In this document: positions 14,801 through 19,504 of the stretch, piece after piece
Numbering within the stretch: position 1 is the first letter of the stretch
Layout: every line of letters begins with the position of its first letter
Assembly (NCBI RefSeq): GCF_009914755.1
Contig: NC_060930.1
DNA: 64,000 nt
Reading direction: 5' to 3' (one strand)
Source of the DNA: the human T2T-CHM13v2.0 reference genome, Homo sapiens
Program-made: the position numbers and the translations under genes
The notes under the pieces: generated by a model
Database searches by the model: none
Seen by the model: only the letters and a program-made list of their open reading frames with translations
Told to the model about the DNA's origin: nothing

Positions 14801-17138
14801 GATGGTAGTTTGTATTTCTGTGGGATCGGTGGTGATATCTCCTTTATCGTTTTTTATTGCATCTATTTGATTCTTCTTTTTTCTTTATTAGTCTTGCTAG
14901 CAGTCTATCAATTTTGTTGATCCTTTCAAAAAACCAGCTCCTGGATTCATTAATTTTTTGAAGGATTTTTTTTTGTCTCTATTTCCTTCAGTTCTGCTCT
15001 GATTTTAGTTATTTCTTGCCTTCTTCTAGCTTTTGAATGTGTTTGCTCTTGCTTTTCTAGTTCTTTTAATTGTGATGTTAGGGTGTCAATTTTGGATCTT
15101 TCCTTCTTTCTCTTGTGGGCATTTAGTGCTATAAATTTCACTCTGCACACTGCTTTGAATGTGTCCCAGAGATTCTGGTATGTTGTGTCTTTGTTCTCGT
15201 TGGTTTCAAAGAACATCTTTATTTCTGCCTTCATTTCGTTATGTACCCAGTAGTCATTCAGGAGCTGGTTGTTCAGTTTCCATGTAGTTGAGCGGTTTTG
15301 AGTGAGTTTCTTAATCCTGAATTCTAGTTTGATTGCACTGTGGTCTGAGAGACAGCTTGTTATAATTTCTGTTCTTTTACATTTGCTGAGGAGAACTTTG
15401 CTTCCACCTATGTGGTCAATTTTGGAATAGGTGTGGTGTGGTGCTGAAAAAAATGTATATTCTGTTGATTTGGGGTGGAGAGTTCTGTAGATGTCTTTTA
15501 GGTCCGCTTGGTGCAGAGCTGAGTTCAATTCCTGGGTATCCTTGTTAACTTTCTGTGACGTTGATCTGTCTAATGTTGACAGTGGGGTGTTGAAGTTTCC
15601 CATTATTATTGTGTGGGAGTCAAAGTCTCTTTGTAGGTCACTCAGGACTTGCTTAATGAATCTTGGTGCTCCTGTATTGGGTGCATATATATTTAGGATA
15701 GTTAGCTCTTCTTGTTGAATTGATCCCTTACCATTATGTAATGGCCTCCTTTGTCTCTTTTGATCTTTGTTGGTTTCAAATCTGTTTTATCAGAGACTAG
15801 GATTGCAACCCCTGCCTTTTTTTGTTTTCCATTTGCTTGGTAGATCTTCCTCCATCCTTTTATTTTGAGCCTATGTGTGTCTCTGCACATGAGATGGGTC
15901 TCCTGAATACAGCACACTGATGGGTCTTTACTCTTTATCCAATTTGCCAGTCTGTGTCTTTTAATTGGAGCATTTAGTCCATTTACATTTAACGTTAATA
16001 TTGTTATGTGTGAATTTGATCCTGTCATTATGATGTTAGTTGGTCATTTTGCTCGTTAGTTGATGCAGTTTCTTCCTAGTCTCAATGGTCTTTACATTTT
16101 GACATGATTTTGCAGCGGCTGGTGCCGGTTGTTCCTTTCCATGTTTAGTGCTTCCTTCAGGAGCTCTTGTAGGGCAGGCCTGGTGGTGACAAAATCTCTC
16201 AGCATTTGCTTGTCTGTAAAGTATTTTATTTCTCCTTTACTTATGAAGCTTAGTTTGGCTGGATATGAAATTCTGGGTTGAAAATTCTTTTCTTTAAGAA
16301 TGTTGAATATTGGCCCCCACTCTCTTCTGGCTTGTAGAGTTTCTGCCAAGAGATCCACTGTTAGTCTGTTGGGCTTCCCTTTGTGGGTAACCTGACCTTT
16401 CTCTCTGGCTGCCCTTAACATTTTTTCCTTCATTTCAACTTTGGTGAATCTGACAATTATGTGTCTTGGAGTTGCTCTTCTCGAGGAGTATCTTTGTGGT
16501 GTTCTCTGTATTTCCTGAATCTGAATGTTGGCCTGCCTTGCTAGATTGGGGAAGTTCTCCTGGATAATATCCTGCAGAGTGTTTTCCAACTTGGTTCCAT
16601 TCTCCCCGTCACTTTCAGGTACACCAATCAGAGCAGATTTGGTCTTTTCACATAGTCCCATATTTCTTGGAGTCTTTGTTCGTTTCTTTTTATTCTTTTT
16701 TCTCTAAACTTCCCTTCTCGCTTCATTTCATTCATTTCATCTTCCATCACTGATACCCTTTCTTCCAGTTGATCACATCGTCTCCTGAGGCTTCTGCATT
16801 CTTGACGTAGTTCTCAAGACTTGGCTTTCAGCTCCATCAGCTCCTTTAAGCACTTCTCTGTATTGGTTATTCTAGTTATACATTCGTTTAAATTTTTTTC
16901 AAAGTTTTCAACTTCTTTGTGTTTGGTTTGAATTTCCTCCTATAGCTTGGAGTAATTTGATCGTCTGAAGCTTTCCTTTCTCAACTCGTCAAAGTCATTC
17001 TCCGTCCAGCTTTGTTCCATTGCTGGTGAGGAACTGCATTCCTCAGATGGAAATGCAGAAATCACCCGTCTTCTGCATCGCTCACGCTGGGAGCTGTAGA
17101 CCGGAGCTGTTCCTATTCGGCCATCTTGGCTCCTCCCC
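11865..17138 (-). mobile_element. Spliced L1 (SpIRE 97/976-type), L1PA2-4-like, ORFs disrupted
   Basis: Intact 5' end GGGGAGGAGCCAAGATGGCCG; 97 nt of 5' UTR joined directly to ORF1-internal GAATGCAGTTCC at 17042/17041; ORF1, EN and RT fragments in the ORF track; TSD CTCTC(T6/T7)CTTT. Confidence 0.92.
13217..13306 (-). pseudogene. Tailless 5S rRNA retropseudogene (5S nt 1-90)
   Basis: Reverse complement GTCTACGGCCATACCACCCTGAAC...GTACTTGGATGGGAGA with 2 mismatches to human 5S; 16-bp TSD ATGCGGTGTTATTTCT at 13204-13219 and 13308-13323. Confidence 0.96.
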
Positions 17139-19504
17139 CTCTCTTTTTTTCTTTATTAGTCTGGCTAACAGTCTATTTTGTTAGTCTTTTCAAACAAACA
17201 GCTCCTGGATTCATTGATTTTTTGAAGAGTTTTCATGTCTGTATCTCCTTCAGTTCTGCTCTGATCTTAGTTATTTCTTGTTTTCTGCTAGCTTTTGAAT
17301 TTATTTGCTCTTCCACTATGATCAAGTCAGCTTCATCCTTGGGATGCAAGGCTGGTTCAACATATGCGAATCAATAAACGTAATCCATCACATAACCAGA
17401 ACCAATGACAAAAACTACATGATTATCTCAGCAGATGCAGAAAAGGCCTGCAATAAAATTGAACACCCATTCATGCTAAAAACTCTCAACTAGGTATTGA
17501 TGGAACATATCTCAAAATAATAAGAGCTATTTGTAACAAACCCACAGCCAATATCATACTGAATGGGCAAAAGCTGGAAGCATTCCCTTTGAAAATCAAC
17601 ACAAGACAAGGATGCCCTCTCTCACCACTCCTCTTCAACATGGTATGGGAAGTTCTGGCCAGAACAATCAGGCAAGAGAAAGAAATAAGGGGTATTCAGA
17701 TAGGAAGAGAGGAAGTCAAATTATCTCTGTTTGCAGAGGACATGATTGTATATTTAGAAAACCCCATCATCTCAGCCCAAAAACTCCTTAAGCTGATAAG
17801 CAACTTCAGCAAAGTCTCAGGATACAAAATCAATGTGCAAAAATCACAAGCATTCCTATACACCAATAATAGACAGAGAGTCAAATCATGAATGAACTCC
17901 CATTCAGAATTGCTACAAAGAGAATAAAATAACTTAAAAATACAACTTAAAAGGGATATGAAGGACCTCTTCAAGGAGAACTACAAACCACTGCCCAGTG
18001 AAATAAGAGAGGGCACAAACAGATGGAAAAACATTCCATGCTCATTGATAGGAAGAATCAATATTGTGAAAATGGCCATACTGCCCAAAGTAATTTATAG
18101 ATTCAGTGCTATCCCCATCAAGCTACCATTGACTTTCTTCACAGAATTAGAAAAAACTTTAAATTTCATATGGAACCAAAAAAGAGCCCGTATAGCCAAG
18201 ACAATCCTAAGCAAAAAGAACAAAGCTGTAGGCATCATGCTACCTGACTTCAGACTATACTACAAGGCTACAGTAACCAAAACAGCATGGTACTGGTACC
18301 AAAACACATATATAGACCAATGGAACAGAACAGAGGCCTCAGAAATGACACCACACATCTACAACCATCTGATCTTTGACAAACTTGACAAAAGCAAGTA
18401 ATGGGGAGAGGATTCCTTATTTAATAAATGGTGCTGGGAAAACTGGCTAGCCATATGCAGAAAACAGAAACTGGGGATCCTTTCCTTGCACCTTATATAA
18501 AAATTAACTCCAGATGGATTAAACACTTAAATGTAAGACCTAAAACCAAAAAAGCCCTAGAAGAAAACCTAGGCAATACTATTCAGGACATAGGCATAGG
18601 CAAAGACTTCATGACTAAAACACCAAAAGCAATGGCAACAAAAGCCAAAATTGACAAATAGGATCTGATTAAACTAAAGAGCTTCTGCACAGTAAAAGAA
18701 ACTATCATCAGAGTGAACAGGCAGCCTACAGAATGGGAGAAAATTGTTGCAATCTCTCCATCTCACAAAGGGCTACTATCCAGAATCTACAAGGAACTTA
18801 AACAAACTTACAAGAAAATACCCCATCAAAAAGTAGGCGAAGGATATGAACAGACACTTCTCAAAAGGACACATTTATATGTGGCCAACAAACATATGAA
18901 AAAAGGCTCATCATCACTGGTCATTAGAAAAATGCAAATCAAAACCACAATGAGATACCATCTCACGCCAGTTAGAATGGCGATTATTTAAGTCAGGAAA
19001 CAACAGATGCTGGAGAGGACTTGGAGAAGTAGGAACGCTTTTACACTGTTGGGAGTGTAAATTAGTTCAACCATTGTGGAAGACAGTGTGGTGATTCCTC
19101 AAGGATCTAGAACCAGAAATGCCATTTGACCCAGCAATCCCATTACTGGGTATATACTCAAAGGATTATAAATCATGCTACTATAAAGACACATGCACAC
19201 ATGTTTATTGCAGCACTATTCACAATAGCAAAGACTTGAAACCAACCCAACGGCCCATCAATGATGGACTGGATAAAGAAAATGTGGTACATATATACCA
19301 TGGAATACTATGCAGCCATAAAAAAGGATGAGTTCATGTCGTTGAGAGTGATGGAACTACCTAATGTAGATATTGGGCTGATGGATGCAGGAAACCACCA
19401 TGGCACGTGTATACCTATGTAACAAACTTGCACGTTCTGCACATGTATCCCATAACTTAAAGTATTAAGAAAAAAAAAGAAAAAAAACTCACCATGCTCT
19501 GTCT

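What the first reader, a model, noticed from the sequence alone, without database searches (positions are those of the whole stretch)
16980..17140. L1 retrotransposed from a spliced RNA (SpIRE 97/976 junction)
Seen (minus strand): GGGGAGGAGCCAAGATGGCCGAATAGG...TTTCCATCTGAG|GAATGCAGTTCCTCACCAGC. The first 97 nt of the 5' UTR join directly to ORF1-internal sequence. Known: the L1 donor at +97 (GAG|GT) can splice to an acceptor near nt 976 (AAG|GAA), removing about 880 nt that include most of the sense promoter, the antisense promoter/ORF0 and the ORF1 start codon. Such spliced integrated elements are described and uncommon. Inference: this copy was promoter-crippled on arrival and probably needed ORF1p in trans. 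Loss of the antisense promoter, which would point along FIG4, may have made the insertion tolerable.
Basis: partly seen in the sequence, partly recalled or inferred. Interest (0 to 1): 0.8.

Follow-up and report, generated by a model that had tools for sequence, protein, structure and literature searches.

The report
Published spliced L1 copy in FIG4
This is an old, dead L1 retrotransposon copied from a spliced L1 RNA into a FIG4 intron, and this exact copy is already listed in a 2018 catalogue, so it is real but ordinary.

Summary
On the minus strand an L1 starts at 17139. Its first 98 nt end in ...CATCTGAG at 17042 and join directly to ORF1-internal sequence (GAATGCAG...) at 17041.

In 20 of 20 full-length L1 copies from the same genome, the missing segment starts with GT and ends with AG behind a pyrimidine tract. 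It contains the ORF1 ATG, which lies 66 nt upstream of the acceptor. The element has a 15/14-nt target-site duplication and an A-rich tail, and it sits inside an older L1.

The same junction occurs at 26 places in this genome by pattern search, plus one with a 2-nt gap. The 27 I looked at have unrelated flanks.

This very copy is published: Larson et al. 2018 (PMC5860796), S1 Table, SpIRE(97/976)-6, L1PA3, hg38 chr6:109751759, FIG4, opposite orientation, TSD 15, "interrupted by a ribosomal 5S sequence". The 5S piece (13217-13306) is a known "tailless retropseudogene" (PMC5322556).

Side note: 16 junction-bearing loci are not in the published list of 11.

Verdict: already known, low interest.

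The parts
17140..17154 (-). 5' copy of the target-site duplication (AAAGAAAAAAAGAGA, 15 nt)
   Evidence: The same string minus one A recurs at 11851-11864. Larson S1 Table gives TSD 15 and cleavage site CTTT/A.
17042..17139 (-). L1 5'UTR nt 1-98 of this copy (L1.3 nt 1-97), ending at the splice donor ...CATCTGAG
   Evidence: full-length L1s match query positions 1-99 at 99-100%; the next bases are GT in 20 of 20 full-length comparators.
17041..17042 (-). Splice junction, GAG|GAA (donor 97 / acceptor 976 in L1.3 numbering)
   Evidence: Larson text gives the intron as G98U99/A974G975.
16092..17041 (-). ORF1 remnant lacking its first 66 nt including the ATG. It is broken by stops at codons 34 and 76 after the junction and by a frameshift near codon 135.
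   Evidence: translation; ATG lies 66 nt upstream of the acceptor in 20 of 20 comparators. Pfam Transposase_22 at 5.2e-58 and Tnp_22_dsRBD at 5e-46 in 16095-16703.
12107..16028 (-). ORF2 remnant (endonuclease and reverse transcriptase), split into at least seven stop-to-stop pieces
   Evidence: ORF list. Exo_endo_phos_2 at 1e-06 and RVT_1 at 2e-33.
13217..13306 (-). Nested 5S rRNA tailless retropseudogene: 5S nt 1-90, sense to the L1, no A-tail. One extra C lies at 13307.
   Evidence: Rfam RF00001, 61.7 bits, E 2e-11; 98.9% identity to a chromosome-1 5S rDNA unit over nt 1-90. Larson S1 Table comment.
13308..13321 (-). Upstream copy of the 14-nt duplication flanking the 5S piece (AAATAACACCGCAT). 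It is preceded by AG, which matches 5S nt 88-89.
13204..13217 (-). Downstream copy of the same 14-nt duplication. Its first A is shared with 5S nt 90.
11865..12106 (-). L1 3'UTR and degenerate A-rich tail
11851..11864 (-). 3' copy of the target-site duplication (AAAGAAAAAAGAGA, 14 nt, one A fewer than the 5' copy)
11776..11850 (-). Older L1 ORF2 fragment that was the target, in the same orientation. It continues on the other side from 17155 upward.
   Evidence: the flanks read straight through as ...GACTAATAAAGAAAAAAAGAGAGAAGAATCAAATAGACAC..., homologous to the element's own stretch near 14860-14900. Larson S1 Data gives the reconstructed empty site.

Best explanation
A full-length L1 transcript, L1PA3 by Larson's assignment, was spliced from the 5'UTR donor after nt 97 to the acceptor inside ORF1 at nt 976. 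The spliced RNA was then inserted by ordinary L1 target-primed reverse transcription into an older L1 in a FIG4 intron, antisense to the gene.

The copy arrived without about 874 nt: most of the sense promoter, the antisense promoter region, and the first 66 nt of ORF1 with its ATG. It therefore could not make full ORF1p and must have used ORF1p made from another L1. It was a dead end and has since decayed through stops and frameshifts in both ORFs.

A 5S rRNA tailless retropseudogene later landed in its ORF2.

Shown here: the junction, the GT/AG ends, the target-site duplication, the recurrence at other loci, the decay, and the listing in print. Inferred: splicing before integration for this particular copy, the need for ORF1p in trans, and the order of the 5S event.
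For: Junction and coordinates.

Splice-site ends: in 20 of 20 full-length L1 copies of the same genome, the segment missing here starts with GT and ends with AG after CCTCTCCTCCTCCAA. Its length is 874 nt in 11 of 20 (range 843-877). The ORF1 ATG lies exactly 66 nt upstream of the acceptor in 20 of 20.

TPRT hallmarks: a 15/14-nt duplication, an A-rich tail, and a CTTT/A nick site.

Recurrence: 13 of 13 junction-spanning hits carry the identical junction with unrelated 5' flanks. A pattern search finds 26 places against 0 for the reversed control.

No SpIRE lineage: this copy is no closer to other spliced copies (best 95.30%) than to full-length copies (best 95.44%). On the tree the spliced state needs 4 changes, and 0 of 200 bootstrap trees give a single origin.

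In print: S1 Table row SpIRE(97/976)-6 (PA3, chr6, 109751759, FIG4, Opp., TSD 15) and the S1 Data filled-site sequence. Experiments on the engineered 97/976 deletion found no retrotransposition in cis and low-level rescue by ORF1p in trans.
Against: The junction lies within a 3-nt overlap (AGG) shared by the donor and acceptor sides. The sequence of this one locus alone therefore cannot exclude a microhomology-mediated DNA deletion.

No ape orthologue could be examined, so pre-integration splicing of this copy rests on the recurrence at other loci and on published experiments.

I did not test the subfamily assignment (PA3) against consensus sequences. None was on hand.

The full-length comparators were picked for near identity to the first 99 nt, so older subfamilies have no full-length comparators in the tree.
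Confidence: 0.95

Rival explanations
1. The L1 inserted full length, and the 874 nt were lost later by a genomic deletion between the short AGG repeats at the two ends.
For: Donor and acceptor sides share 3 nt (AGG), so the deletion end points are ambiguous by 3 nt. No orthologue was checked.
Against: The ends coincide exactly with GT...AG and a pyrimidine tract in 20 of 20 comparators. The identical junction sits at 26 other places: 25 by pattern search and one with a 2-nt gap. The 26 looked at have unrelated flanks. This splice is documented in L1 RNA (citing Belancio 2006 and 2008, which I did not read).
Confidence: 0.02
2. This copy was not freshly spliced. It was transcribed from an older genomic 97/976 element and mobilised in trans, so it belongs to a small spliced lineage.
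For: Low-level trans-mobilisation of a 97/976 RNA is possible when ORF1p is supplied. In the tree this copy and another chromosome-6 spliced copy sit at the same unresolved fork.
Against: Over 1,450 nt this copy is 93.98% identical to that other chromosome-6 copy. Its nearest neighbours are full-length L1s (95.44%), with the best spliced copy at 95.30%. The tree needs 4 changes of the spliced state, and 0 of 200 bootstrap trees give one origin. A 97/976 element has a crippled promoter (Larson abstract).
Confidence: 0.05
3. This rival concerns the 5S piece only. It was not a later nested insertion. It was picked up during this L1's own reverse transcription by two template switches, from L1 RNA to 5S rRNA and back to L1 RNA 14 nt downstream.
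For: The piece is in sense orientation. It carries one extra C at the 5S 5' end. L1/5S chimeras with 5S truncated at nt 90 are described. No other genomic L1 among the 40 places scored carries the same two junctions, so the event is private to this copy under either reading.
Against: It has every mark of the free-standing class. Of 30 such loci examined, 27 start at 5S nt 1-4 and all 30 end at nt 90. By my simple rule, 23 have a duplication of 7 nt or more, and 21 of those 23 have AG just before the 5' copy, as here. Most lie outside L1s. One nested insertion is simpler than two precise switches.
Confidence: 0.1

Closest known systems
SpIRE97/976 (5'UTR/ORF1 spliced integrated retrotransposed element), Larson et al. 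2018, PLoS Biol, PMC5860796. First seen by Belancio et al. 2006 and 2008, which I know only from Larson's reference list.
   Same: It is the catalogued element SpIRE(97/976)-6. Chromosome, position, gene, orientation, duplication length and the 5S interruption all agree, and the printed part of the filled-site sequence matches.
   Different: Nothing of substance differs. The window (T2T-CHM13) has T where the printed hg38 sequence has C at 17077 (GAGCGATGCAG against GAGCGACGCAG). It also has one A fewer in a flank homopolymer.
SpIRE97/622 and SpIRE97/790 (intra-5'UTR spliced L1s)
   Same: They use the same donor after nt 97, insert by the same TPRT route, and have reduced promoter activity.
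   Different: Their acceptors lie inside the 5'UTR, so ORF1 stays whole. Here the acceptor is 66 nt into ORF1, so the start codon is lost.
5S rRNA tailless retropseudogenes (Schmitz 2004, recalled; Noll et al. 2015, PMC5322556: 555 in human)
   Same: The 5S piece at 13217-13306 is complete at its 5' end and cut at nt 90. It has no A-tail and is flanked by a 14-nt duplication. Its target site is complementary to the last 5S bases. Truncation at nt 90 is attributed to loop D in the 2025 preprint.
   Different: It lies inside another retrotransposon, and one extra C sits between the duplication and 5S nt 1.

Membership tests
SpIRE97/976 | L1 5' end present from nt 1 up to the donor after nt 97 | tested here: met
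   17139-17042 matches full-length L1 5' ends at 99-100% over query positions 1-99. It ends in CATCTGAG, as do all 20 comparators.
SpIRE97/976 | Sequence resumes at L1.3 nt 976 inside ORF1. The missing part starts with GT and ends with AG in intact relatives. | tested here: met
   GT in 20 of 20 and AG in 20 of 20 comparators. The acceptor is 66 nt after the ORF1 ATG in 20 of 20, as stated in the paper.
SpIRE97/976 | Hallmarks of target-primed reverse transcription: target-site duplication, A-tail, L1 endonuclease-type nick site | tested here: met
   15/14-nt duplication at 17140-17154 and 11851-11864 and an A-rich tail. The bottom strand reads ...CTTT/ATTAG, as in Larson's table.
SpIRE97/976 | Listed in the published catalogue | tested here: met
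   S1 Table sheet SpIRE(97-976), row 6. S1 Data clone 6, chr6:109751759-109757156.
SpIRE97/976 | Weak promoter and non-functional N-terminally truncated ORF1p; mobilised only with ORF1p in trans | not testable with these tools
   Shown only for an engineered L1.3 carrying the same deletion. This genomic copy now also has stops in the ORF1 frame.
5S rRNA tailless retropseudogene | Complete at the 5' end, truncated at the 3' end in a single-stranded region, no oligo(A) tail | tested here: met
   5S nt 1-90 is followed directly by the duplicated L1 sequence. That nt 87-90 is loop D comes from the 2025 preprint's text, not from a fold of mine.
5S rRNA tailless retropseudogene | Flanking target-site duplication, with the target site complementary to the last bases of the RNA part | tested here: met
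   The 14-nt duplication has 0 mismatches, and the 5' copy is preceded by AG, matching 5S nt 88-89. The same holds in 21 of the 23 loci with a duplication, out of 30 examined.

The most novel reading that the evidence does not exclude
The locus itself holds nothing new. The boldest reading still open is about the class. The 97/976 splice-and-insert event recurred more often, and further back in L1 history, than the published catalogue of 11 shows. This T2T genome holds 27 junction-bearing places. By chromosome and approximate coordinate, 16 of them are not in Larson's S1 Table. Most carry older-type 5' ends and the CCAACTGAG donor variant.
Probability: 0.6. Interest if true: 0.2.

Novelty: already known. 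Interest (0 to 1): 0.08.

Why it matters
It matters little. This exact element, its junction, its target-site duplication and even its 5S interruption are in a 2018 supplementary table, and the mechanism was tested experimentally there.

The case does show that a reader of raw sequence can recognise a spliced L1 correctly. It also gives a clean worked example of three nested retrotransposition events: an old L1, a spliced L1 inside it, and a tailless 5S copy inside that.

The one small gain is the hint that an identity cut-off against L1.3 left older 97/976 elements out of the catalogue.

Tried and rejected
1. A spliced lineage, with this copy descending from another 97/976 element. I tested this by identity ranking over 1,450 nt and a maximum-likelihood tree of 13 spliced and 20 full-length copies. 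Neither gave support. In one search one row (the chromosome-2 copy) is interrupted after 538 nt, so its 61.6% there is an alignment artefact. It was cut to 538 nt for the tree.

2. Double template switching as the origin of the 5S piece. I ranked it below a nested insertion after seeing the same architecture at free-standing loci.

3. The extra C before 5S nt 1 as a sign of DNA-level copying from the rDNA, where the base at -1 is also C. I dropped this: at the chromosome-5 locus the C belongs to the duplication, and one base proves nothing.

4. My first script for the acceptor side picked the wrong alignment piece for 1 of 6 comparators. I redid it on 20 comparators.

5. Pfam on the 33 residues right after the junction gave nothing, as expected for so short a piece.

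7. A search for papers holding both 'SpIREs' and 'T2T-CHM13' found none.

Not done:
- Alignment to L1PA2/3/4 consensus sequences. None was on hand, so individual full-length copies of the same genome stood in.
- Ape orthologues.
- CAGE data.
- Liftover of the published hg38 coordinates. Matching to T2T places was by chromosome and nearness only.
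Full report
OBSERVATION

Read on the minus strand, the window shows an L1 5' end starting at 17139 (GGGGGAGGAGCCAAGATGGCC...). It runs to ...TTTCCATCTGAG at 17042 and is followed directly by GAATGCAGTTCCTCACCAGC... from 17041 (coordinates fixed). The only nuance is that the 5'UTR part is 98 nt in this copy. It carries one more G (ACGGGTG) than the L1.3 numbering, as do all the full-length comparators below.

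TEST AGAINST INTACT L1s OF THE SAME GENOME

No consensus library was on hand, but the window's own genome could be searched.

- A 150-nt query across the junction was run, and 40 of 2,190 candidates were scored. It gave 13 places that span the junction. The other 27 were full-length L1s that match only query positions 1-99.
- I fetched 20 of those full-length copies. In 20 of 20, the segment missing from our element begins with GT (CATCTGAG|GTACC...). In 20 of 20 it ends with AG behind a pyrimidine tract (...CCTCTCCTCCTCCAAAG|GAACGCAG).
- The missing segment is 874 nt in 11 of 20 (range 843-877).
- In 20 of 20, the ORF1 ATG lies exactly 66 nt upstream of the acceptor. This is the figure given in the literature.
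- Donor and acceptor sides share AGG, so the end points are ambiguous by 3 nt. This overlap is inherent to splice-site consensus, but it means one locus alone cannot exclude a microhomology deletion.

RECURRENCE

- All 13 junction-spanning places carry the identical junction with unrelated 5' flanks.
- A 32-place pattern across the junction, with up to 3 mismatches, finds 26 places against 0 for the reversed control. One more place, seen, has a 2-nt gap.
- I looked at 14 further places: 11 not in the published list and 3 that are. Of the 11, 10 have the L1 5' end before the junction. One has only about 14-16 nt of it.
- Independent insertions with the same junction argue for processing at the RNA level.

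HALLMARKS OF INSERTION AND STATE OF THE COPY

- The element is flanked by AAAGAAAAAAAGAGA (17140-17154) and the same string minus one A (11851-11864). It ends in a degenerate A-rich tail.
- The flanks read through as an older L1 ORF2 stretch in the same orientation. It is homologous to the element's own sequence near 14860-14900.
- After the junction, the ORF1 frame meets stops at codons 34 and 76 and shifts frame near codon 135.
- Pfam still recognises the ORF1 RNA-binding and C-terminal domains, the endonuclease and the reverse transcriptase in separate fragments.
- ORF2 is in at least seven stop-to-stop pieces. The copy is long dead.

FRESH SPLICING OR A SPLICED PARENT?

- Over 1,450 nt after the junction, this copy is 93.78-95.44% identical to the 20 full-length copies. 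It is 89.8-95.30% identical to 11 of the 12 other spliced copies, leaving out the chromosome-2 copy, which is interrupted after 538 nt.
- Its nearest neighbours are full-length copies.
- In the maximum-likelihood tree the spliced state needs 4 changes, strongly supported branches force at least 2, and 0 of 200 bootstrap trees give one origin.
- Caveat: the comparators were chosen for near identity to the first 99 nt. The five oldest spliced copies therefore form a basal group without full-length partners, which is a sampling effect.
- The terminal branch of this copy is 0.032 changes per site. This fits an insertion well over ten million years old and agrees with the published PA3 label. The rate behind that age is recalled, not computed.

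ALREADY IN PRINT

Larson et al. 2018 (PMC5860796). I read the abstract, sections 7, 8, 13, 15, 21 and 39, passages found by term, S1 Table part 2, and the S1 Data entry around this locus. The paper defines SpIRE97/976 as G98U99/A974G975 and lists 11 in hg38.

- Row 6 of that sheet reads: PA3, chromosome 6, start 109751759, length 5161, FIG4, Opp., CTTT/A, TSD 15, no transduction, "Insertion is interrupted by a ribosomal 5S sequence".
- The printed empty and filled sites (chr6:109751759-109757156) match the window as far as they are shown. The exceptions are C in place of the window's T at 17077, and one A in a flank homopolymer.
- Their engineered 97/976 L1.3 made only truncated ORF1p, did not retrotranspose in cis, and was rescued at a low level by ORF1p in trans.
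- The idea that loss of the antisense promoter made the insertion tolerable is right in geometry but unsupported. The paper finds the intron share (51 of 131) and orientation bias (32 of 51 opposite) of SpIREs to be like those of ordinary L1s.

THE 5S PIECE

- Rfam finds 5S rRNA at 13201-13306 on the minus strand (61.7 bits, E 2e-11).
- The part truly derived from 5S is nt 1-90 (13306-13217). It is 98.9% identical to a chromosome-1 rDNA unit.
- It is flanked by a perfect 14-nt repeat, AAATAACACCGCAT. The 5' copy is preceded by AG.
- The two junctions are unique among the 40 places scored of 1,040 candidates.
- The end of the 5S part followed by AAA occurs at 118 places against 0 for the control.
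- I examined 30 of these loci, this one included. All 30 end at nt 90 and 27 start at nt 1-4. By a simple rule, 23 have a duplication of 7 nt or more, and 21 of those 23 have AG before the 5' copy.
- This is the described class of tailless retropseudogenes: internal priming in single-stranded regions, target complementarity, and 555 5S-derived cases in human (PMC5322556, abstract and passages). Truncation at nt 90 is attributed to loop D in a 2025 preprint (10.1101/2025.02.02.635956, passages).
- I read the piece as a later nested insertion. A double template switch during the L1's own reverse transcription is not excluded.

SIDE RESULT

The 11 published elements can each be paired, by chromosome and nearness, with one of the 27 places. 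The other 16 are not in the table. Most have the donor variant CCAACTGAG and older-type 5' ends. The paper required more than 95% identity to a 100-nt L1.3 probe, which could explain the gap. I did not lift over coordinates or curate duplications for these. A search for papers holding 'SpIREs' and 'T2T-CHM13' found none.

VERDICT

This is a textbook member of a known class, and this very copy is already catalogued. Interest is low.

Noticed in passing
window 13204-13323 (minus strand): A 5S rRNA fragment (nt 1-90, sense to the L1, no A-tail) sits inside L1 ORF2. It lies between two perfect 14-nt copies of AAATAACACCGCAT, with one extra C before 5S nt 1. It fits the known class of tailless retropseudogenes. 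Larson's table already notes the interruption but not its architecture.
   Followed up: yes
G000 genome-wide. Examples: C3:138148543, C4:120988320, C6:84071576, C9:13315994, C15:74583763, C8:3432901, C9:1785204, C23:13972116, C23:56913622.: 27 places carry the 97/976 junction (26 by pattern, one with a 2-nt gap). 11 pair with the published hg38 list, and 16 do not appear in it by chromosome and approximate coordinate. Most of the extra ones look like older L1PA subfamilies. One of the extra ones (C1:172591022) keeps only about 14-16 nt of the 5'UTR part.
   Followed up: partly
G000: 118 places matching the 5S end followed by AAA. 30 examined as L017-L046.: In 21 of the 23 loci with a detectable duplication, the 5' copy is preceded by AG. 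The target therefore reads AGAAA..., complementary to the last 5S bases. This is direct support for internal priming at 5S nt 88-90.
   Followed up: partly
window 17077 and about 17230: There are two small differences between this T2T-CHM13 window and the hg38 sequence printed in Larson's S1 Data. One is T in place of C at a CpG in the L1 5'UTR part (17077). The other is one A fewer in a flank homopolymer (CATGAAAAC against CATGAAAAAC).
   Followed up: no
window 17155-17500 (minus strand): The older L1 that received the insertion is itself rearranged. ORF2-middle sequence (from about 17155 up to about 17312) is preceded by sequence that looks like the 3' part of ORF2 (about 17313-17500). This suggests two old fragments or an internal rearrangement.
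   Followed up: no
L013-L016 (G000 C1:227.7-227.9 Mb): Some units of the chromosome-1 5S rDNA array carry A where the chromosome-5 copy (L012) has G, at about 5S nt 66 (GGTCGGACCTGG). The inserted piece has the same variant. The piece's other difference from these units (GAACACGCCC against GAACGCGCCC) is a CpG change, also seen in the chromosome-5 tailless copy.
   Followed up: no
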